Positions 10,708 through 39,125 of a DNA stretch of 64,000 nucleotides are shown here, piece after piece (the first letter of the stretch is position 1; each line of letters starts with the position of its first letter). A program made the translations under genes and the position numbers. Under the pieces are notes generated by a model. That model saw only the letters and a program-made list of their open reading frames with translations. It did no database searches and was not told the DNA's origin. The DNA lies in the NCBI RefSeq assembly GCF_054482525.1, contig NZ_CM137006.1. One strand, written 5' to 3'.

Positions 10708-12816
10708 TCAGTACTCTCTCATATCCGGCGTATCCTGCTTTTCATCAGGGGTCTTCGGTGGGGATTTCGAGGCTGCACAGTTCCAGTTAATCAACAGTGA
10801 GTCACCATTAACCTGCTCCTTACCCTGCAAATGAATTTTTGTGCCGTTGAGAAAAATTTGTCCGTCCTTAGTCAGCACCAGCCTTGCCTTACCACAGCAG
10901 AGTTCCAGATGCTCACCGCCGGAGTAAATCGCGGTCTGCCCGGTATCATCCTTTTTCGTTTTACCAACGGTGAAGGTAACGTTATTTCCGACTTTGACGT
11001 CATAACCCAGCCCGACCATCAACGATTTATGCAAACCGATCTGCGAGGACTGCATCAGGGCCACCGAGGTGTTCATAATGCCACCTACCGTCGTCTGATA
11101 CGCCACGCCCACAGTCAGCGCACGAACAAGTCCAATCGTTTCCACCTGAACAGAGCCCACTTTAATGATCTGGTTACTGCCCACCGTCTCTATCTGGTTA
11201 ACACCCACCGTCTGTATCTGATTGTTGGTAACCGCAATCATCTGATTGTTGCCAATGGTCTCAGCATGGTTGTTTATCACATCCGTGGTGCGGTTATTCA
11301 GCACCTCGGTGTTCATGTTCTTCTGCGCGTGGATGTAGACCTGTTCTTTCCCTGTCGCATCGTCAAACTTCAGTTCATTAAACCCGCTGCCCTTATAGGT
11401 TTTCGAACGAATGGTCATCTGCGTCTTTGTTCCCGGCAGGCTGCCGGGGGTGCGGTTTTCCTGGTGGTAGGTACGCCCCATAATAATCGGCTGGTCCGGA
11501 TCGCCGTTGAGGAAGTCCACAATGACTTCCTGACCCACACGCGGTATCGCCAGGTTGCCAAAGCCGGTGCCTGCCCACGCCTGTGCCACACGGATCCAGC
11601 ATGAACTGTCCTGGTTTGACGGGTTATAGCGGTCCCAGTTAAATTTCACCCGCACGCGGCCATGTTCATCACAGAAGATTTCTTCTCCTGCCGGTCCCGT
11701 CACGACGGCGCTCTGCGGGCCGTCCACCAGCGGTTTCAGCAACGGCTGTGGCCGCCATGTTCTGTCTGCCGGTATTACCGCAAAGTGGTTATTCAGCGTG
11801 GTACCTGAACCCCTGCGTCCCGGCACCGCCTGCGGCTGCTCGCCGTGCAGTTCACTTGCCACCACCTGCCATTCCCGGTTCAGGTTCGCCTGCGGATGCC
11901 CCGTCAGCGCAATTCGCCGTCCCGGCCATATCTCCGGCGAACGGCTTGTTCCGCGCGCCACTTCTGCGTTGTTTCGCCAGCCATCCATCTGCCAGCAGGC
12001 AAAGTTCTGCCCGTGGGCACCCTTGAAACGTCCGGGGTAGTCATACACTTCATACTGTGTGCGCTGGTAATCCTGGTGCTGGCCTTCCTGATCAAAACGC
12101 CCTGCCCAGCCGGGTCGTTTAAAGGTGTAGTCTTTGGTCACCACGGAAGATGGGCGGATTTGTGCGCTGTAGAGGAACTGGCTGATGCATAGGGTGCTCA
12201 CCTCGGTACGGGTGTTCGGATTCCAGGGGATCTCAAAGGACTCCGGCAGATAACGCACGGTGTCGCACAGGACCAGGCTCTGGTCGGTACTTTTTTGCGC
12301 GTGCTCCTCATAAAAGAAGATGCCTTCCTCCGCCGCCATCCGGCACAGGAAATCGTAATCGGTTTCGCCGTACTGGACACAAAACTCACGGGAAGGATGC
12401 GGCTCGCTGAACAGCGGACTCCACTCGGTCACCCCGTTTTCTTTCAGGATCGTCGCGAGTATGCTTTCGATGTCCTCATTCTGGAAGATACGGAAGTTCT
12501 GGCGCAGCCCTGTGCGCCACAGCGGTGGGCACACCTTCATGCTGTACAGCATCTGGTTTTTGTCGTTCTCCCCCAGTTCAAACCAGGTCACCACACCTTT
12601 CACCCGGCGCTGTACGTCATCGCCCTGCCATACCGTCAGGTAGGCCATTTTGTCCAGCACCTGCGCAAATTCAAGGGAGAGAAACTGCTGGCTGACCAGA
12701 GAGAGATCGAGGGAAAAGAGCGAAGAGAGTGACTGGTTCAGATGAAAGGAGACCACCGCAAACGCGTCCGGTGGCAGGCCGTCCACTTCCAGCGTGAAAC
12801 GTAATCCGGTTGACAT
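10708..12816 (-). CDS. vgrG: T6SS spike protein VgrG (TssI), 702 aa
   Basis: Translation MSTGLRFTLEVDGLPPDAFAVVSF... with a gp27/gp5-like body and a C-terminal beta-helix repeat region (VGNNQ..., TVG repeats). Located between hcp and rhs. Confidence 0.9.
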   Translation of the reverse strand: MSTGLRFTLEVDGLPPDAFAVVSFHLNQSLSSLFSLDLSLVSQQFLSLEFAQVLDKMAYLTVWQGDDVQRRVKGVVTWFELGENDKNQMLYSMKVCPPLWRTGLRQNFRIFQNEDIESILATILKENGVTEWSPLFSEPHPSREFCVQYGETDYDFLCRMAAEEGIFFYEEHAQKSTDQSLVLCDTVRYLPESFEIPWNPNTRTEVSTLCISQFLYSAQIRPSSVVTKDYTFKRPGWAGRFDQEGQHQDYQRTQYEVYDYPGRFKGAHGQNFACWQMDGWRNNAEVARGTSRSPEIWPGRRIALTGHPQANLNREWQVVASELHGEQPQAVPGRRGSGTTLNNHFAVIPADRTWRPQPLLKPLVDGPQSAVVTGPAGEEIFCDEHGRVRVKFNWDRYNPSNQDSSCWIRVAQAWAGTGFGNLAIPRVGQEVIVDFLNGDPDQPIIMGRTYHQENRTPGSLPGTKTQMTIRSKTYKGSGFNELKFDDATGKEQVYIHAQKNMNTEVLNNRTTDVINNHAETIGNNQMIAVTNNQIQTVGVNQIETVGSNQIIKVGSVQVETIGLVRALTVGVAYQTTVGGIMNTSVALMQSSQIGLHKSLMVGLGYDVKVGNNVTFTVGKTKKDDTGQTAIYSGGEHLELCCGKARLVLTKDGQIFLNGTKIHLQGKEQVNGDSLLINWNCAASKSPPKTPDEKQDTPDMREY

Positions 12817-12980
12817 AGCAACCTCCGGGTTTAAGGAAAAACAGACAGTTCGCTGTTAAAGCGGCTGTAACAGTACAGTGTTACGCTTGCGTTCAGGCAC
12901 GCTACCGCCGAAGTTTCCGGCATCCGCCATCTCCCGTGAACGTAACCCCTTACTGACAACCTTTCTTTTTACGGCGTAAT

Positions 12981-13015
12981 ACAAAAACAGCATCCGGCCT
13001 AATAGCCGGATGCTG
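12981..13015 (-). terminator. Intrinsic terminator/attenuator hairpin between hcp and vgrG
   Basis: 10-bp perfect stem CAGCATCCGG / CCGGATGCTG (12988-12997 and 13006-13015) with an 8-nt loop. On the minus strand it is followed by a T run (plus-strand A run 12983-12987). Lies just 3' of the hcp stop. Confidence 0.5.
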
Positions 13016-13025
13016 TTGGCTTAAC

Positions 13026-13544
13026 TTATGCTTCCAGCGGTGCGCGCCAGTCGTCGGCACCGGAGGTGCCAGACTTGACGTGTTCCCACTCTATTTTGCG
13101 GTAGGCCAGTGAAACTTCGAGCAACTGGGTGAACTCGCGTTTCGCCGGATCCTGGCAATGCGGCATATGCAGTTTCATATCGACAATCGTCGAATCGGTC
13201 AGGCGGGTGGTGAAATAATGCTCCTGTTTGCCTTCCACAGAGGTACGCCACCAGTGAAGTTCAGTGGTTGGCAGCATTTCGCCGGAGGCCAGTGCGTTGT
13301 ACATCAGCGGAACAGCTTTGTTCAGCGCCACGGTAAAAATGAACGGCTTGTGAGCACGCTGACCCGCAGGCTGGCCGGACTGAGGATCGGTCGGGACAGT
13401 AACGTTATGCAGGAATTCCTGCACCAGCATCTCGTCTTCGTGCCCCTGCACATAGATGTTGCCGACAGAATCAGCGGTAAATGCACCTGCAGTAATATTT
13501 CCCTGGGTCTGACCTGTGATGGAGATATAACACGGTGTTGGCAT
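13026..13544 (-). CDS. hcp: T6SS tube protein Hcp (TssD), 172 aa
   Basis: MPTPCYISITGQTQGNITAGAFTADSVGN... is a typical Hcp N-terminus. Strong RBS (AAGGAG) upstream. Confidence 0.9.
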   Translation of the reverse strand: MPTPCYISITGQTQGNITAGAFTADSVGNIYVQGHEDEMLVQEFLHNVTVPTDPQSGQPAGQRAHKPFIFTVALNKAVPLMYNALASGEMLPTTELHWWRTSVEGKQEHYFTTRLTDSTIVDMKLHMPHCQDPAKREFTQLLEVSLAYRKIEWEHVKSGTSGADDWRAPLEA

Positions 13545-14240
13545 TTGTAAACTCCTTGTTAACGTGGTTAATTACTACTTACAATGACCTGCCGTTAATC
13601 CCAGACAGGCAGATGCAGCTCACTTCACGGAACCGCATCATTTTTCAGTATTTTTTACATACAAACCGAGCTAGAATTTACGGTTGTCGTAAAAACTATT
13701 TTTAAAATCATTAAATCTCTTATTCAGCAATAAGTTAATAATATATATCTGGATAACCATACCCAACTATTCAAAGTCCGTATTGCCTCCATAAAATGGC
13801 CAAAGCTGAATCATGAATAAATATTGTATTTATCCTTTCTGAATTATCATTTTGATAATTTTTGAGATATTCCTTAAAAATACCCACTTAATCAATCACA
13901 AAACAAATATATAAACAAGCAATCATCAGATTAGCTTATGTTTAATGAAATTATTGTATAATTCAATAAGTTACATAAAAGCTCTATATTTAAATTATTG
14001 CCATAATACACCTGACGCGAATTGCACAGGTTCACACAATCTATTTAACGCTTGCAGAATACCCCTCTTTACGATCGATAAAAAGTCCTTTTCTTATTTA
14101 TTTTGAAGCGTAGAATGCGGGGTGATGAAGGAGTGGTGATTTTATTTTCACCGCCATTATGGCGGCATTGCCGATATTTTTTTGCGGTACAAATATGCCG
14201 TGTTCATGGCCTGTACGAGATAACATGACGGATCACTTTT
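13545..14240. promoter_or_regulatory. AT-rich divergent control region between hcp-vgrG-rhs (minus) and tssB...vasL (plus)
   Basis: 696 bp with no ORF, very AT-rich compared with the flanking genes. Contains a perfect palindrome AATTATCA-TTT-TGATAATT (13842..13860) and a 7-bp inverted repeat CCGCCAT-T-ATGGCGG (14151..14165) about 75 bp upstream of tssB. Confidence 0.4.
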
Positions 14241-14741
14241 ATGAGCAAAAAATTTGAAGGCAGCGTCGCGCCTCGCGAGCGTATAAATATATCCTATGTC
14301 CCGAAGACGGACGGCCAGACGGCTGAAGTAGAGCTTCCGCTTAACATGCTCGTTGTCGGCGATACCGGAAATACGCAGGAGACATCCCCACTGGATGAAC
14401 GTCAGGCAGTTTCCGTTAACAAGCACAATTTCGGTGCAGTAATGGCTGAAGCAGCCATTGGCCTCAATTTTACCGTCCCCGCCACGCTGAAGGGAAGCAC
14501 AACGGACGATGAACTGAATGTGGCGCTGAATATCAAGTCACTGGATGATTTTTCACCGGACAGCGTGGCCCGGCAGGTTCCGGAAGTGAATAAATTGCTG
14601 GAACTGCGTGAAGCACTGACTGCGCTGAAGGGGCCGATGGGCAACCTTCCGGCATTCCGTACCCAGCTCCAGGCATTGCTGGAAAATGAGGAGTCCCGCG
14701 AGCAGTTGCTTAAAGAAATCGGCCAGGTGAGTGGGAAATAA
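14241..14741 (+). CDS. tssB: T6SS sheath small subunit TssB (VipA), 166 aa
   Basis: MSKKFEGSVAPRERINISYVPKTDGQTAEVELPLNMLVVGD... is a typical TssB. Confidence 0.9.
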   Translation: MSKKFEGSVAPRERINISYVPKTDGQTAEVELPLNMLVVGDTGNTQETSPLDERQAVSVNKHNFGAVMAEAAIGLNFTVPATLKGSTTDDELNVALNIKSLDDFSPDSVARQVPEVNKLLELREALTALKGPMGNLPAFRTQLQALLENEESREQLLKEIGQVSGK

Positions 14742-14982
14742 CCACCACTATTTCATTAAACAGGGTTATCCAGACATGGCGGCACACAAAAATATCTCCG
14801 GGAAACACCCCCTCTCTGACGAAGACATTTTGCAGGCGGTTTACCGGGTATGTTTCAGCCCGTCCGGTGAAATCAACCGGGATGGCGTGGATGCGCTGAT
14901 TACAACACTGGATCGCCGTATCAGTGATCTATTGGATGAGATTATCCATCTTTGTGAGTTTCAGCAGAGCGCGCCGTACTGA
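14731..14982 (+). CDS. Hypothetical 83-aa ORF between tssB and tssC; C-terminal third resembles the conserved N-terminal motif of TssC
   Basis: ORF tail ...VDALITTLDRRISDLLDEIIHLCEFQQ aligns with TssC residues ...VDSMIADIDERISRQMDVIIHAPAFQQ (14 of 27 identical by eye). DNA is diverged, so not a recent duplication. May be non-coding remnant. Confidence 0.3.
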   Translation: MGNNHHYFIKQGYPDMAAHKNISGKHPLSDEDILQAVYRVCFSPSGEINRDGVDALITTLDRRISDLLDEIIHLCEFQQSAPY

Positions 14983-16949: not shown

Positions 16950-18800
16950 ATGGAATTTGAAGAACGCTATTTCCGGGAAGAACTCGATTACCTGCGCCAG
17001 CTCAGCAAGCTGCTGGCAACGGAAAAACCCCATCTTGCCCGCTTCCTGGCCGAAAAAGATGCGGATCCGGATATTGAACGCCTGCTGGAAGGCGTGGCTT
17101 TTCTTACCGGCAATCTCCGCCAGAAAATTGAGGATGAATTCCCAGAACTGACGCACGGGCTTATTAAGATGCTCTGGCCTAATTACCTGCGTCCGGTTCC
17201 GGCAATGACCCTTATTGAATATACGCCGGATATGGATAAGTCTTCTGTGCCGGTGTTAATCCCCCGTAATGAGCAGTTTACAACCAAAGCCGGGGAAATC
17301 AGAGTCGATGAAGTGCTGCCCTCCGATGCTAAAAAGGAGGAGCCGCCTCCCTGTACCTTCACCCTCTGCCGGGATATCTGGCTGCTGCCCGTTCGCCTGG
17401 AGCAGATTGAAAACCGCAGTACGACCCGTAATGGTGTTATCAACATCACCTTTTCGGTCGCACCGGGAACGGACTTCCGCACGCTGGATCTGAACAAACT
17501 TCGCTTCTGGCTCGGCAATGACGACAACTATACCCGTGACCAGCTTTATTTATGGTTCTGTGAATACTTGCAGGGTGCCGACCTGACTGTGGGTGAACAG
17601 CATATTCGCCTGCCTGAGTTTATGCTGAAAGCTGTCGGTTTTGAGCCGCAGGATGCCATGCTGCCCTGGCCGAAAAACCTCCACAGCGGCTACCGGATCC
17701 TTCAGGAGTATTTCTGTTACCCGGATGCGTTTCTCTTTTTTGATCTTTGTGGTTGCCCGGCGTTGCCTGACGGATTGCAGGCTGAATCCTTTACCCTGCA
17801 ACTGCGTTTTTCGCGCCCATTGCCCGTGGACATCCGGCTGCGCCGCGATTCTCTGCGCCTGTATTGCGCACCTGCCATTAATTTATTTATCCACCATGCA
17901 GAAGCCATCACGCTGGACAACCGGCGGGCAGACTATCCGCTGGTTCCCAGCCGCCACTATCCGGAACATTACGATGTCTTTTCCGTTAACGGCGTGGTGA
18001 GCCAGGTGCAGGATATGTTCAGGAAAAAAGATCTGGGGCGTCCTGTTTCGACGCAGGCCGCGCGCCAGTGGCCTGCCTTTGAAAGTTTCAGCCATCAGAT
18101 GGAATACAGCCGGAAGCGGGAAGTGGTGTACTGGCATCACCGGACCAAAACATCCCTGTTCCATCGCGGCTTTGATCATACCCTTGCTTTTATACATGCT
18201 GATGGCAGTTATCCGTCAGACGAATCGCTGCTCAGTAATGAAGTGGTTTCGGTATCGCTGACCTGTACCAACCGTGAGCTTCCGTCACAAATTCGTTCCG
18301 GCGATATCACCGGCACAACCGGTAAAAATGCGGCTGTTGCTTCATTTCGCAACATTACCCGCCCGACGCAACCGCTCTGGCCGGTCATTGATGGCAGCCT
18401 GCACTGGTCCCTGCTCTCCGCCATGAACCTGAATTATCTGTCATTACTGGATACGGACGCGCTGAAGCAGGTCATCGCCAACTTTGATCGCCACGCAATC
18501 CATCATCCGCAGACGGCGCGGCTGTCACAACAAAAGCTGGATGCCATTGAGCGTCTGGAGACCCGCCCTGTCGATCGCCTGTTTACGGGCATTCCCGTCC
18601 GGGGGCTGGCCTCCACGCTGTATCTGCACCCGGAGCCGTTTGTCTGTGAAGGGGAAATGTATCTGCTTGGTACGGTGCTTTCGCATTTTCTGTCGCTGTA
18701 CGCCAGCGTTAACTCATTCCACATGCTGACCGTTGTGAACACAGAAAGCCAGGAGACATGGAAATGGACGGAAAGAACCGGGCAGCATCCTCTTATCTGA
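16950..18800 (+). CDS. tssF: T6SS baseplate protein TssF, 616 aa
   Basis: MEFEERYFREELDYLRQLSKLLA... N-terminus, size, and position between tssE and tssG. Confidence 0.85.
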   Translation: MEFEERYFREELDYLRQLSKLLATEKPHLARFLAEKDADPDIERLLEGVAFLTGNLRQKIEDEFPELTHGLIKMLWPNYLRPVPAMTLIEYTPDMDKSSVPVLIPRNEQFTTKAGEIRVDEVLPSDAKKEEPPPCTFTLCRDIWLLPVRLEQIENRSTTRNGVINITFSVAPGTDFRTLDLNKLRFWLGNDDNYTRDQLYLWFCEYLQGADLTVGEQHIRLPEFMLKAVGFEPQDAMLPWPKNLHSGYRILQEYFCYPDAFLFFDLCGCPALPDGLQAESFTLQLRFSRPLPVDIRLRRDSLRLYCAPAINLFIHHAEAITLDNRRADYPLVPSRHYPEHYDVFSVNGVVSQVQDMFRKKDLGRPVSTQAARQWPAFESFSHQMEYSRKREVVYWHHRTKTSLFHRGFDHTLAFIHADGSYPSDESLLSNEVVSVSLTCTNRELPSQIRSGDITGTTGKNAAVASFRNITRPTQPLWPVIDGSLHWSLLSAMNLNYLSLLDTDALKQVIANFDRHAIHHPQTARLSQQKLDAIERLETRPVDRLFTGIPVRGLASTLYLHPEPFVCEGEMYLLGTVLSHFLSLYASVNSFHMLTVVNTESQETWKWTERTGQHPLI

Positions 18801-19846
18801 GTCCGGGAAATCCCCCGGCAGATAAAGAGCAGAATGATCCGCTGGCACAGGTTTTTCATAACGCCTGCTCTTACAATTTTTTTGCCATGGCGGAGCTGTT
18901 GCACCGCCTGGCACAGGGTGAAAAGGGGACGCTGGAATTATCCCTGCGCGACGATCCGGCACAGGAAACCCTGCGTTTCAGCGCCGATGCCAGCCTTGCG
19001 TTTCCCCTGAGTGATATCAGTGCGCTGAAACGGGATACGTCAGGGTCATTCAGGATGACCACCACCTTTATGGGGTTACAGGGGAGCCAGTCGCCTCTCC
19101 CCGGTTATTACCTCGATCACCTGGCCTGGAAAGCGGTACATGAACAAAGTCCGGTAGGTGATTTTCTGGATATGTTCAGCCACCGCCTGACCCAGTTTGT
19201 CTGGCATATCTGGCGTAAGTACCGCTATCACATCAGTTTTCGTAACGGCGGTGTGGATGCGTTCTCGCAGCGCATGTACTCCCTTGTCGGGCTGGGCCAC
19301 CGCCACCTTCGCGATAAGCTGGCGATTAATCACAGCAAAATGCTGGCGTATTCCGGGATCCTGGCAAATCCGGGACGATCCCCGGAAATCATCTGCGGTC
19401 TGGTGTCCCACTGCTTTGATTTGTCAGACGTGATGCTGCAAAACTGGCAACGTCGCAAGGTGGATATTGAACCGGATCAGCAAAATAGCCTGGGGAGCTA
19501 TTCACTTAAAAATGGCGAAAAACTGGCAGGAAGATCGGTACTGGGCAACTTTGTTCTGGGTACACGGGTGCCCGATCTCAGCGGAAAATTCCAGCTCAGT
19601 ATTACCAGCCTGACCCGAAAACAGTTCCTCTCTTTTCTGCCGTCCGGCGAAAACTTCCTGCCACTGACGATGTTTGTGTCCTTCATCCTGCGCGATCAGC
19701 TTGCCTGGGACTTACATCTGGGGCTGGCGCCGGAGCAGGTGGGCGCAATGCGCCTGGGCGATAACAAAAGTGCGCTGCTGGGCTGGACCAGCTTCCTCGG
19801 CACACCGGAAGAACGACCCTCAGTCACCATCAGGGTACGGTCGTAA
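18758..19846 (+). CDS. tssG: T6SS baseplate protein TssG, 362 aa
   Basis: Overlaps the tssF end (translational coupling). RBS AGGAGA at 18751-18756. Size and position typical. Confidence 0.85.
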   Translation: MEMDGKNRAASSYLSPGNPPADKEQNDPLAQVFHNACSYNFFAMAELLHRLAQGEKGTLELSLRDDPAQETLRFSADASLAFPLSDISALKRDTSGSFRMTTTFMGLQGSQSPLPGYYLDHLAWKAVHEQSPVGDFLDMFSHRLTQFVWHIWRKYRYHISFRNGGVDAFSQRMYSLVGLGHRHLRDKLAINHSKMLAYSGILANPGRSPEIICGLVSHCFDLSDVMLQNWQRRKVDIEPDQQNSLGSYSLKNGEKLAGRSVLGNFVLGTRVPDLSGKFQLSITSLTRKQFLSFLPSGENFLPLTMFVSFILRDQLAWDLHLGLAPEQVGAMRLGDNKSALLGWTSFLGTPEERPSVTIRVRS

Positions 19847-37854: not shown

Positions 37855-38124
37855 AATCGGACACTCCCTCGCCTGTCATAATCATGGTAATGTTTAACTA
37901 ACGATTTTTAATTATATACTCCACTTGAATCAGAACAAACAAAAATAACAGCAAATATAAATTCATTAAATCAATAGAAAAATGAAAATCATAACATGCA
38001 AATATATTTAAATTGAATGATTCGATAGTATGATTAAATATTAATGATATGGTCTACCATATGTGATTAACACATTTACAGCATAACAAAATCATAGACC
38101 GAAGAAATAGCGGGATTTAAATGC

Positions 38125-38153
38125 AAAAAACCGCAAAATTAAAAATCTTGCGG
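38125..38153 (-). terminator. Intrinsic terminator downstream of tRNA-Asp (aspV)
   Basis: Stem CCGCAA / TTGCGG, followed on the minus strand by a T run (plus-strand A run 38125-38130). Confidence 0.5.
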
Positions 38154-38184
38154 TTCTCTGAACCTCATTTTCATGAGGTGAATT

Positions 38185-38261
38185 TGGCGGAACGGACGGG
38201 ACTCGAACCCGCGACCCCCTGCGTGACAGGCAGGTATTCTAACCGACTGAACTACCGCTCC
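38185..38261 (-). tRNA. aspV: tRNA-Asp (GUC)
   Basis: 77-nt reverse-complement match to E. coli tRNA-Asp (GGAGCGGTAGTTCAGTCGGTTAGAATACCTGCCTGTCACGCAGGGGGTCGCGGGTTCGAGTCCCGTCCGTTCCGCCA), recalled from memory. Confidence 0.95.
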
Positions 38262-38393
38262 GCGTTGTGTTCCGTTGGGAACGAGGCAAATATTACGGAT
38301 TGCCTCACCCGTCGTCAATGGTTTTTCTCATCTTTTGAATCGTTTGCTGCAAAAATCGCCCAAGTCGCTATTTTTAGCGCCTTTCACAGGTAT

Positions 38394-39125
38394 TTATGCT
38401 CGCCAGAGGCAGCTTCCGCCTTTCTTCTGCACCAGATCGAGACGGGCTTCATGTGCTGCCAGCTCTTCATCTGTCGCAAAAACAACGCGTAACTTACTTG
38501 CCTGACGTACAATGCGCTGAATTGTTGCTTCACCTTGTTGCTGCTGTGTCTCTCCTTCCATCGCAAAAGCCATCGACGTTTGACCACCGGTCATCGCCAG
38601 ATAAACTTCCGCAAGAATCTGGGCATCGAGTAATGCCCCGTGCAGCGTTCGTTTACTGTTATCTATTTCGTAGCGGGCACATAACGCATCGAGGCTGTTG
38701 CGCTTACCGGGAAACATTTTCCTCGCCACCGCAAGGCTATCGGTGACCTTACAGAAGGTATTGGTCTTCGGAATATCGCGCTTAAGCAACGAAAACTCGT
38801 AGTCCATAAAGCCGATATCGAATGCTGCGTTATGGATCACCAACTCCGCGCCGCGGATATAGTCCATGAACTCATCGGCTACTTCGGCAAACGTGGGCTT
38901 ATCGAGCAAAAATTCATCGGCAATACCATGTACGCCAAAGGCTTCCGGATCCACCAGCCGATCGGGTTTGAGATAAACATGGAAGTTATTGCCCGTCAGG
39001 CGACGGTTCACCACTTCAACGGCACCAATCTCAATGATCTTGTGGCCTTCATAGTGCGCACCAATCTGGTTCATACCGGTGGTTTCGGTATCGAGAACGA
39101 TCTGGCGTGTAATTGCAGTGCTCAT
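38394..39125 (-). CDS. dnaQ: DNA polymerase III epsilon subunit (3'-5' proofreading exonuclease), 243 aa
   Basis: [20 protein letters not shown]... matches DnaQ. The track ORF starts 3 codons upstream. Confidence 0.95.

What the first reader, a model, noticed from the sequence alone, without database searches (positions are those of the whole stretch)
13545..14240. AT-rich divergent control region with a Fur-half-site-like palindrome
The 696-bp gap between hcp (minus) and tssB (plus) is much more AT-rich than the flanking genes, which would suit nucleoid-protein silencing of acquired DNA. It contains a perfect 19-bp palindrome AATTATCA-TTT-TGATAATT (13842..13860), whose arms resemble Fur-box half-sites in an everted arrangement, and a 7-bp inverted repeat CCGCCAT-T-ATGGCGG (14151..14165) near the tssB start.
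Basis: inference. Interest (0 to 1): 0.4.

Follow-up and report, generated by a model that had tools for sequence, protein, structure and literature searches.

The report
H-NS-silenced T6SS-2 divergent promoter gap
This is the already studied AT-rich control region between the hcp and tssB operons of the common E. coli type VI secretion system 2, which is silenced by H-NS; the "Fur-like" palindrome is really in the sequence but is no better than chance and nothing shows that it binds Fur.

Summary
The gap 13545-14240 (696 bp) lies between hcp (minus strand) and tssB (plus strand). It is 33% GC against 52.5% for the window, and it contains the window's most AT-rich 200 bp (21.5% GC). Both inverted repeats sit at the stated coordinates.

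The "perfect 19-bp palindrome" is really 8-bp arms around a non-symmetric TTT spacer. A repeat that good appears in 19.5% of composition-matched shuffles. Its match to the Fur consensus is 12/19, and 91% of shuffles reach that. The half-sites are everted rather than in the 7-1-7 arrangement that Fur uses. The repeat is missing from E. albertii, Yokenella, Citrobacter youngae and the B2/APEC-type E. coli allele. The second repeat (14151-14165) is perfect in only about 6% of genomes that carry the locus.

The locus is the E. coli T6SS-2 "bidirectional promoter" already studied in EHEC O157:H7, where the gap is 97% identical and the palindrome identical. There, deleting hns derepresses both operons. 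No Fur effect has been published. A fur and iron test in APEC was negative, but it used an allele that lacks the palindrome.

Verdict: this is a known H-NS-silenced divergent promoter region. The palindrome is probably incidental, and the Fur reading is unsupported though not strictly excluded. Interest is low.

The parts
13026..13544 (-). hcp (Hcp family tube protein; hcp2 of PCN033, hcp3 of EHEC papers), first gene of the leftward hcp-vgrG-rhs operon
   Evidence: ORF of 172 aa. Annotated as an Hcp family T6SS effector, WP_001142958.1, in PCN033 and other genomes.
13545..14240 (.). AT-rich divergent intergenic control region: the T6SS-2 'bidirectional promoter' and target of H-NS silencing
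   Evidence: GC 0.332, minimum 0.215. Present at 95-100% identity in 2235 of 5426 complete E. coli genomes. Orthologous gaps in five other alleles or species keep their length (635-705 bp) and GC (0.29-0.33) while sequence identity falls to 0.37-0.62. hns-deletion data come from EHEC and APEC.
13842..13860 (.). Interrupted inverted repeat AATTATCA-TTT-TGATAATT (the reported 'palindrome')
   Evidence: Read directly. Chance level in shuffles. Fur consensus match 12/19. Single copy per genome, and the 30-mer is exact in 2010 of 2231 genomes. Left arm lost in E. albertii; absent from the APEC O1, Yokenella and C. youngae gaps. Its arms overlap two back-to-back -35-like hexamers, TTGATA on + at 13852-13857 and ATGATA on - at 13850-13845.
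13817..13833 (.). Second AT-rich inverted repeat ATAAATA-TTG-TATTTAT; overlaps the best Fur-consensus match in the gap (13/19 at 13816-13834) and a minus-strand -10-like TACAAT (13828-13823)
   Evidence: It lies in a 35-bp block identical between E. coli and E. albertii.
14056..14116 (+). Only block conserved across all six alleles: AGAATAC ... AAAAAGTnCTTyTm ... GTA(G/A)AAT. Candidate tssB core promoter, with a -10-like TAGAAT at 14111-14116, 17 bp after a poor -35-position hexamer CTTTTC at 14088-14093
   Evidence: Alignments A1, A2 and the six-way alignment. The 14113 G/A polymorphism keeps a -10-like hexamer, TAGAAT or TAAAAT. The promoter assignment is inference; no transcription start data were available to me.
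14151..14165 (+). Inverted repeat CCGCCAT-T-ATGGCGG in the probable tssB leader
   Evidence: Perfect only in a minority haplotype. Lies in a segment missing from Yokenella and C. youngae and diverged in E. albertii and APEC O1. Not part of the predicted minimum-energy RNA fold, whose z-score is -1.63. The ATG at 14159 is lost in most haplotypes, so there is no conserved upstream ORF.
13545..13620 (-). hcp leader: Shine-Dalgarno AAGGAG (complement of 13552-13557) and a CTGCC/GGCAG stem-loop region
   Evidence: Conserved across genera at the hcp-proximal end. Only 1 variable column in 13545-13700 among 12 E. coli haplotypes. The fold is not unusual, z -1.69.
14241..14741 (+). tssB, first gene of the rightward structural operon (tssB-tssC-tssE-tssF...)
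   Evidence: ORF of 166 aa. Annotated tssB, WP_000037390.1.

Best explanation
The gap is the shared control region of the two divergent operons of E. coli T6SS-2: hcp-vgrG-rhs to the left and tssB...tssM to the right. Its function most likely depends on its composition rather than on any one motif.

The roughly 450-bp core is 22-30% GC and rich in TpA steps and A/T tracts, and it sits between genes of about 52% GC. I propose that it nucleates H-NS filaments, which cover both promoters and keep the system off in laboratory culture. Removing H-NS derepresses transcription, but a further unknown signal is needed for full expression.

The 19-bp interrupted inverted repeat lies in the AT-richest centre. 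It is most likely an incidental product of AT-rich sequence. At most it contributes an H-NS-preferred TTGATAATTT-like tract or -35-like hexamers. It is not a Fur operator.

The tssB core promoter is probably near the only block conserved in all orthologues, with a -10-like TAGAAT at 14111-14116. The GC-rich repeat at 14151-14165 is a haplotype-specific feature of the leader.

Shown: anatomy, composition, chance levels, distribution and conservation. Taken from papers: H-NS dependence. Inferred: nucleation in the gap, promoter positions, and that the palindrome has no function.
For: Composition: GC 0.332 with a minimum of 0.215, the lowest in the 64-kb window.

AT-richness and length are conserved without sequence conservation. 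The six orthologous gaps are 635-705 bp and 0.29-0.33 GC, with pairwise identity of 0.37-0.62. Each has its own inverted repeats of at least 7 bp at different places.

Same locus as EHEC t6sP: 97% identity over the gap, and the 60 bp around the palindrome are identical in 1964 of 2228 genomes including O157:H7.

Published experiments:
- hns deletion raises T6SS genes up to 60-fold and is complemented (PMC5363993).
- hns deletion raises tssB and hcp3 mRNA and reporter output, and DMEM or MM9 medium is also needed for protein (PMC13141884).
- hns deletion, but not fur deletion or iron limitation, raises clpV2, hcp2A and hcp2B in APEC (PMC5874247).
- A later paper cites earlier work as showing H-NS bound to this gap.

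Palindrome at chance level: an inverted repeat of at least 8 bp appears in 19.5% of shuffles. The Fur match is 12/19 against a shuffle mean maximum of 12.4. Clustering of Fur-like windows gives P of 0.08-0.18.

The palindrome is not conserved in E. albertii, APEC O1, Yokenella or C. youngae. It is single-copy in E. coli genomes, so it is not a repeated operator.
Against: - H-NS binding was not tested here, and I could not read the primary paper on binding and transcription starts (Kim et al. 2022, pmid 35984617).
- Matches to the H-NS high-affinity motif, which I recalled from memory as TCGATAAATT, are not significantly enriched: 4 sites at 8/10 or better against 2.2 +/- 1.6 in shuffles.
- Within the EHEC-type allele the 30-mer containing the palindrome is exact in 90% of genomes. 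That would also fit a functional site, although the whole hcp-proximal half of the gap is at least as conserved.
- Proven Fur boxes can match the consensus as poorly as 11/19 and 13/19 (sci1). The classic fepA-fes region peaks at 13/19. Sequence alone therefore cannot exclude weak Fur binding.
- hns deletion alone does not give full expression, so some specific regulator site must exist somewhere in the gap.
Confidence: 0.75

Rival explanations
1. The palindrome, together with the neighbouring Fur-like windows at 13816-13884, is a weak Fur-binding cluster. It would act as a second, iron-responsive lock beneath H-NS. On this view, iron limitation supplies the extra signal needed once H-NS is removed.
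For: - Perfect GATAAT and ATTATC hexamers at 13854 and 13843.
- Six windows with at least 11/19 matches within 50 bp, spaced in multiples of 6 bp.
- Proven sci1 Fur boxes match only 11/19 and 13/19.
- EHEC lacking hns makes Hcp3, TssB and ClpV protein only in DMEM or MM9, and the authors could not explain this. That these media are iron-poor relative to LB is my own knowledge, not tested.
- Fur controls E. coli T6SS-1.
Against: - All Fur-likeness is at chance level for this composition: 91% of shuffles reach 12/19, the best 7-1-7 match is 10/14 against a shuffle mean of 10.0, and the cluster P is 0.08-0.18.
- The half-sites are everted with a 3-bp spacer. This is neither the head-to-head 7-1-7 dyad nor a run of three phased hexamers (established Fur-box models; read from the sequence).
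- Positive controls score higher in shorter, less AT-rich DNA: fepB-entC 15/19 and 13/14, fhuA 14/19.
- The published PWM scan of the EHEC gap did not list Fur.
- EHEC reporters were not induced in any medium tested, including sci1-inducing medium.
- T6SS-2 was unchanged or down in macrophage-phagocytosed EHEC, where fur itself was down.
- fur deletion and iron limitation had no effect on T6SS-2 in APEC, though that allele lacks the palindrome.
- Not conserved in orthologues.
Confidence: 0.07
2. The dyad is the operator of another dimeric or tetrameric regulator that counteracts H-NS. One candidate class is a LysR-type protein such as LeuO or ArgP, because TATC-N5-GATA fits the generic T-N11-A box. 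Another is IHF bending the region.
For: - The inner 13 bp, TATCATTTTGATA, have T-N11-A dyad form (read from the sequence; the family rule is from my own knowledge).
- The published scan of the EHEC gap predicted ArgP, CysB and LeuO sites, all LysR-type, though their positions were not available to me.
- There is a one-mismatch IHF core match, TATCAAAATGATA, on the minus strand at 13845-13857.
- An unidentified activating signal is known to be required.
- The 30-mer is exact in 90% of genomes with this allele.
Against: - The dyad is at chance level and is not conserved in E. albertii or more distant orthologues.
- Natural variants break the innermost pair (A13849G) or alter the spacer.
- Four other one-mismatch IHF cores occur in the gap.
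- None of the conditions chosen from the predicted sites activated the EHEC reporters.
Confidence: 0.08
3. The symmetry reflects two back-to-back -35 hexamers of divergent sigma-70 promoters. TTGATA (13852-13857, +) would pair with AAAAAT (13876-13881) to drive tssB. ATGATA (13850-13845, -) would pair with TACAAT (13828-13823) to drive hcp.
For: The consensus scan reports exactly these two sites, each at 9/12. TACAAT lies in a 35-bp block identical in E. albertii. A later paper says earlier work found several transcription start sites in this gap.
Against: - Promoter-like hits are at chance frequency: 5 found against 3.8 +/- 1.7 expected.
- A 4-bp insertion in E. albertii would stretch the minus-strand spacer to 20 bp.
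- The leaders would be long, about 270 and 350 nt.
- The only block conserved in all six alleles, which has a -10-like hexamer, is elsewhere at 14056-14116.
Confidence: 0.1

Closest known systems
EHEC O157:H7 EDL933 T6SS-2 bidirectional promoter 't6sP' between hcp3 and tssB (Wan 2017, PMC5363993; Kim, Lee and Yoon 2022, pmid 35984617; Vazquez-Lopez 2026, PMC13141884)
   Same: It is the same locus: the same flanking genes, a 696-bp gap at 97% identity, and an identical palindrome. H-NS-repressed, silent in laboratory media, and the activating signal is unknown.
   Different: There are 21 differences over the gap. O157:H7 lacks the perfect 14151-14165 repeat. As far as I could read, none of the accessible papers mentions the 13842-13860 dyad or Fur at this promoter (one search finds no 'palindrom' or 'iron').
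APEC TW-XM / APEC O1 (phylogroup B2) T6SS-2 hcp2B-vipA2 divergent region (Ma 2018, PMC5874247)
   Same: Same island position at aspV, same divergent hcp/tssB layout, a 705-bp gap at 31.5% GC, derepressed by hns deletion.
   Different: A deeply diverged allele: gap identity is about 0.49, TssB is only 54.5% identical and Hcp 94%. It has no palindrome. It is found in 553 genomes against 2235 for the allele here. fur and iron had no effect there. That TW-XM carries the APEC O1-type allele is inferred from the matching gene order; I did not verify it on the TW-XM sequence.
EAEC sci1 (T6SS-1) promoter with two Fur boxes overlapping Dam GATC sites (Brunet 2011, PMC3145626)
   Same: An E. coli T6SS promoter upstream of tssB with AT-rich Fur-like sequence. 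The Fur boxes there also match the consensus poorly, at 11/19 and 13/19.
   Different: At sci1, Fur binding was shown by FURTA and EMSA, one box overlaps the -10 element, and GATC sites lie within the boxes. Here there is no Fur evidence. The two GATC sites (14073, 14231) are far from the palindrome. The T6SS subtype and sequence are different.
H-NS silencing of the Salmonella SPI-6 T6SS (Brunet 2015, cited)
   Same: An enterobacterial T6SS kept off by H-NS acting at an AT-rich promoter region. The cited papers give this as the precedent; I did not read the primary paper.
   Different: A different island and sequence. No comparison was made here.

Membership tests
Fur box (Fur operator) | Match to the 19-bp consensus GATAATGATAATCATTATC above what the local composition gives | tested here: not met
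   The palindrome matches 12/19 and the best site in the gap 13/19. The maximum in 1000 dinucleotide shuffles averages 12.4, and 91% reach 12. Controls: fepB-entC 15, fhuA 14, fepA-fes 13. Caveat: proven sci1 boxes score only 11 and 13, so this test has low power.
Fur box (Fur operator) | Head-to-head 7-1-7 dyad TGATAATnATTATCA, or at least three phased NATWAT hexamers | tested here: not met
   The half-sites are everted (ATTATCA-TTT-TGATAAT). The hexamers start 11 bp apart. The best 7-1-7 match is 10/14, equal to the shuffle mean of 10.0; fepB-entC scores 13/14.
Fur box (Fur operator) | Fur- and iron-dependent expression or binding | not testable with these tools
   No published test exists for this allele. 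The test was negative for the B2 allele, which lacks the palindrome. EHEC reporters stayed silent in all media tried.
Fur box (Fur operator) | Site conserved in orthologous promoters | tested here: not met
   Left arm lost in E. albertii. Absent from APEC O1, Yokenella and C. youngae.
H-NS-silenced promoter region | AT content well above the genome and the flanking genes | tested here: met
   GC 0.332 with a minimum of 0.215, against a window mean of 0.525. All five orthologous gaps are 0.29-0.33 despite 37-62% sequence identity.
H-NS-silenced promoter region | Derepression on hns deletion | not testable with these tools
   Published for the same locus in EHEC and for the B2 allele in APEC.
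H-NS-silenced promoter region | Direct H-NS occupancy of the gap | not testable with these tools
   PMC13141884 states this, citing refs 27 and 40. The primary paper is not held.
H-NS-silenced promoter region | Enrichment of high-affinity nucleation motifs (TCGATAAATT-like; motif recalled from memory) | tested here: inconclusive
   Four sites at 8/10 or better (13788, 13852, 13963, 14075) against 2.2 +/- 1.6 in shuffles.
Divergent sigma-70 promoter pair | -35 and -10 elements on both strands, more than chance, conserved in orthologues | tested here: inconclusive
   Five promoter-like sites against 3.8 +/- 1.7 expected. One -10-like hexamer (14111-14116) is conserved in all six alleles, but its -35 is poor. 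No transcription start data were available.
Structured RNA leader or known RNA family | Rfam match, or a fold more stable than shuffles with conserved pairing | tested here: not met
   No Rfam match at E<=1. Fold z-scores are -1.63 and -1.69. The 14151-14165 stem is not conserved.

The most novel reading that the evidence does not exclude
The 13842-13860 dyad, exact in about 90% of the roughly 2200 genomes carrying this allele, could be the operator for the still unknown second signal. That signal lets T6SS-2 express once H-NS is lifted, and it is seen as the DMEM/MM9 requirement in EHEC lacking hns. The regulator might be Fur sensing low iron, or a LysR-type anti-silencer. If so, a single defined site could be tested to find what switches on the most common E. 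coli T6SS.
Probability: 0.07. Interest if true: 0.45.

Novelty: already known. Interest (0 to 1): 0.12.

Why it matters
T6SS-2 is the most widespread type VI system in E. coli. The allele here is in 41% of complete genomes, EHEC O157:H7 included. What turns it on is an open question: the 2026 EHEC study could not activate it in any medium. The region itself and its H-NS silencing are already published, so this finding adds no new kind of element.

What this check does add:
- The Fur-like dyad carries no statistical or comparative weight.
- The one published negative Fur test was done on a diverged allele that lacks the dyad, so it does not settle the matter for this allele.
- The only sequence block conserved across genera is at 14056-14116. 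That is a better place than the palindrome to look for the core promoter and an activator site.

Tried and rejected
- **Known RNA families:** an Rfam scan of 12800-14800 at E<=1 found nothing.
- **Structured leaders:** folds of the tssB leader (14120-14260) and the hcp leader (13525-13700, minus strand) are not unusual, with z -1.63 and -1.69. The 14151-14165 hairpin is not in the minimum-energy fold.
- **Small ORFs in the gap:** these are 13535-13705, 13945-14106, 14103-14228 and 14159-14257. I rejected them. They lie in polymorphic or indel-bearing stretches, and the ATG at 14159 is AAG or AGG in most haplotypes.
- **Intrinsic terminator at 14160-14183:** the scan flags a weak stem with 3 GC pairs. 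It competes with the stronger 14151-14165 stem and is not conserved, so I did not pursue it.
- **Repeated operator elsewhere in the genome:** the 30-mer is single-copy, and only stray partial hits exist, for example in wzy.
- **Dam/Fur overlap as at sci1:** the GATC sites at 14073 and 14231 are far from the palindrome, and GATC 14073 is lost in E. albertii.
- **Sigma-54, sigma-28, sigma-E and sigma-S motifs** around the conserved block: I checked these by eye and found no match (inference only).
- **A real Fur weight matrix:** Chen 2007 holds no site sequences in its text. I used consensus counts with shuffles and three K-12 positive controls instead.
- **Transcription start data:** Kim 2022 is not held, and the Sy 2020 supplements are not held.
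- **Distant orthologues:** the genome-contig scan with TssB returned only four loci, so comparative power is limited to six alleles.

Full report
**What is at the coordinates**

The window has hcp at 13026..13544 on the minus strand and tssB at 14241..14741 on the plus strand, so the gap is 13545..14240, 696 bp. The gap is 100% identical to E. coli PCN033, where RefSeq annotates the same two genes inside a T6SS cluster. To the left are vgrG, RHS core proteins and ISAs1. To the right are tssB, tssC, tssE, tssF, tssG, tagH, tssJ, tssK, icmH, tssH, vasI, tssA and tssM.

The window as a whole is not the PCN033 record. It lacks PCN033's IS200C in tssG and carries an IS421 inside tagH. Its best full match is strain VTB96933v.

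GC is 0.332 in the gap against 0.525 for the window and 0.50-0.58 for the flanking genes. The 200-bp window starting at 13801 (0.215) is the lowest in all 64 kb.

**The inverted repeats**

AATTATCA-TTT-TGATAATT is at 13842..13860 and CCGCCAT-T-ATGGCGG is at 14151..14165, as reported. The first is not a perfect palindrome, because the TTT spacer is not symmetric. A third repeat, ATAAATA-TTG-TATTTAT, lies at 13817..13833.

In 2000 dinucleotide-preserving shuffles of the gap, an inverted repeat with arms of at least 8 bp and a spacer of at most 10 bp appears in 19.5%, and one with arms of at least 7 bp in 56%. The AT-rich dyad is therefore unremarkable for this composition. Every orthologous gap examined has its own repeats of at least 7 bp at other positions. 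E. albertii even has a 9-bp-arm repeat.

The GC-rich repeat is rarer by chance (0.7% of shuffles). However, the 40-mer around it matches this window exactly in only 132 of 2228 genomes. In the sampled haplotypes the arms change: CCGCCATCAAGGCGG, CCGCCATTAGGGCGG, and CCGCCATCAAGACGG in O157:H7. It is missing from Yokenella and C. youngae and diverged in E. albertii and APEC O1. It is not part of the predicted minimum-energy fold of the leader.

**Fur likeness**

- Against GATAATGATAATCATTATC the palindrome scores 12/19 and the best site in the gap 13/19, at 13816-13834. The maximum in shuffles averages 12.4, and 91% reach 12.
- The best 7-1-7 match is 10/14, equal to the shuffle mean.
- The two perfect hexamers are arranged ATTATC...GATAAT, tail to tail, with starts 11 bp apart. 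By established Fur-box models this is neither the head-to-head dyad bound by a Fur dimer nor a phased hexamer array.
- A local cluster of six windows with at least 11/19 matches is not significant (P 0.08-0.18).
- Classic Fur-regulated K-12 regions score 13 (fepA-fes), 14 (fhuA) and 15 with 13/14 (fepB-entC), in shorter and less AT-rich DNA.
- The proven sci1 Fur boxes match only 11 and 13 of 19. Consensus counting therefore cannot exclude weak binding; it only shows there is no positive signal.

**Distribution and conservation**

The gap is present at 95-100% identity in 2235 of 5426 complete E. coli genomes, once per genome. The 60 bp around the palindrome are identical in 1964 of 2228 of these, O157:H7 included. 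The 30-mer is exact in 2010 of 2231 and occurs essentially nowhere else in E. coli genomes. Natural variants include A13849G, which breaks the innermost pair, and T13851G in the spacer.

Among 12 sampled haplotypes, variable columns per 100 bp are 0.6 at 13545-13700, 3 at 13701-13800, 7 at 13801-13900, 18 at 13901-14000 and about 9 nearer tssB. The palindrome has 2 variable columns in 19 bp, so it is no better conserved than its hcp-side neighbours.

Outside this allele the dyad disappears:
- E. albertii keeps CATTTTGATAATTTTTGAGATA but has a different left side.
- The B2-type allele (APEC O1, found in 553 genomes) has no trace of it, and neither do Yokenella regensburgei or Citrobacter youngae.

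All six gaps keep the divergent hcp/tssB layout, a length of 635-705 bp and a GC of 0.29-0.33, while pairwise identity is only 0.37-0.62. This pattern, with composition and length conserved but sequence not, is what a region that works through its AT-richness would show.

**What is conserved**

Three parts are shared by all six alleles:
- the hcp-proximal leader, with the Shine-Dalgarno AAGGAG;
- the last 40 bp or so before the tssB start;
- one internal block at 14056-14116: AGAATAC, AAAAAGTnCTTyTm and GTA(G/A)AAT.

The internal block contains a -10-like TAGAAT (TAAAAT in most E. coli) at 14111-14116, 17 bp after a poor -35-position hexamer. I infer that this is the tssB core promoter and that it depends on an activator, which would give a leader of about 118 nt. 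This is inference. The simple promoter scan did not call it. Its five hits, which include two back-to-back -35-like hexamers on the palindrome arms, are at chance frequency (5 against 3.8 +/- 1.7).

**What is published on this locus**

- In EHEC EDL933 the cluster is almost silent in culture. Salt, pH, medium and temperature did not induce it. hns deletion raised z0254, z0264 and z0267, one of them 60-fold, and complementation reversed this (PMC5363993).
- A 2026 study calls the gap the unknown bidirectional promoter, t6sP. It cites earlier work for H-NS binding there and for several transcription start sites. It shows that hns deletion raises hcp3 and tssB mRNA and reporter output, and that protein appears only when hns-deleted cells are also grown in DMEM or MM9.
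- The same study found no medium or additive that activates wild-type reporters. It tried sugars, amino acids, Zn, Cu, H2O2 and sci1-inducing medium. [quoted passage not shown]
- In APEC TW-XM, hns deletion raised clpV2, hcp2A and hcp2B, while fur deletion and iron limitation did not. In the same strain Fur did control T6SS-1 (PMC5874247).
- The gene order described for TW-XM matches the APEC O1 allele, whose gap lacks the palindrome and whose TssB is only 54.5% identical to the one here. That negative Fur result is therefore not a direct test of the dyad.
- In phagocytosed EHEC, fur was down and T6SS-2 was unchanged or down.
- A 2023 review lists Fur only for E. coli T6SS-1.
- I found no paper reporting a fur or iron test of the EHEC-type allele.

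**Conclusion**

The Fur reading rests on two hexamers that are expected by chance in DNA this AT-rich, in an arrangement Fur does not use, at a site that evolution has not kept. I rate it at about 7%.

Two alternatives remain at about 10% each, and both are compatible with H-NS silencing. In one, the dyad is the site of some other regulator that counters H-NS. In the other, it reflects back-to-back -35 hexamers.

The most likely account (confidence 0.75) has four parts. H-NS nucleates on the AT-rich core and occludes both promoters. A still unknown activating input is needed as well. The palindrome is incidental. The repeat at 14151-14165 is a haplotype quirk of the leader.

Noticed in passing
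window 20212-21548: A 1337-bp IS421 (IS4-like; 372-aa DDE transposase on the minus strand at 20382-21500) is inserted in tagH. It is absent from PCN033, which has IS200C in tssG instead. Only 7 genomes share this insertion, for example VTB96933v. The T6SS in the source strain may therefore be impaired whatever its promoter does.
   Followed up: partly
L001 25220-27013 (PCN033) against window 18758-19846: RefSeq annotates PCN033's tssG as split by IS200C and its vgrG as frameshifted. Yet PCN033 was published as having a functional T6SS, based on 2- to 4-fold competition effects of hcp mutants (PMC4882540). The window has an intact 362-aa tssG ORF.
   Followed up: partly
window 13026-14741 against L006 37509-39236 (APEC O1): E. 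coli carries two deeply diverged T6SS-2 alleles at the same aspV site. The EHEC/PCN033 type is in 2235 genomes and the B2/APEC O1 type in 553. TssB is only 54.5% identical between them, less than between E. coli and Yokenella (77%), while Hcp is 94% identical. Results from APEC 'T6SS2' should not be carried over to EHEC-type strains without checking.
   Followed up: partly
window 13026-13544 (hcp) and L003-L005: Hcp is 97-99% identical in protein between E. coli, E. albertii, Yokenella and C. youngae. Third codon positions are only 66-73% identical, and the neighbouring TssB is 77-93% identical. This points to very strong purifying selection on this Hcp rather than recent transfer.
   Followed up: partly
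window 13545-14240: Polymorphism among 12 E. coli haplotypes rises steeply across the gap, from 1 variable column in 13545-13700 to 18 per 100 bp in 13901-14000. This could be a recombination boundary or stronger constraint on the hcp side. It is unexplained.
   Followed up: no
L003 about 960-980; L006 (reverse complement of 38013-38717) about position 338; window 13842-13880: Three diverged alleles each have a different inverted repeat near the same central position of the gap. E. coli has AATTATCA-N3-TGATAATT, E. albertii has TCAAAAT-N6-ATTTTGA overlapping it, and APEC O1 has ATTCCTT-A-AAGGAAT just to the right. This is probably coincidence (rough post hoc odds of 0.05-0.1), but it could mean that dyad symmetry is conserved by position.
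   Followed up: no
window 14731-14982: An 83-aa ORF between tssB and tssC is annotated as a hypothetical protein in every E. coli genome fetched (WP_000718847.1 or WP_000123970.1). Its function is unknown.
   Followed up: no
window 2109-4226 and 6911-9028: Two RHS core genes lie to the left of vgrG and share segments that are 87-88% identical. One is annotated as frameshifted in PCN033. This is ordinary Rhs toxin-cassette turnover. The AT-rich patches at 5841-6940 (GC about 0.34) are probably Rhs tips and immunity genes.
   Followed up: no
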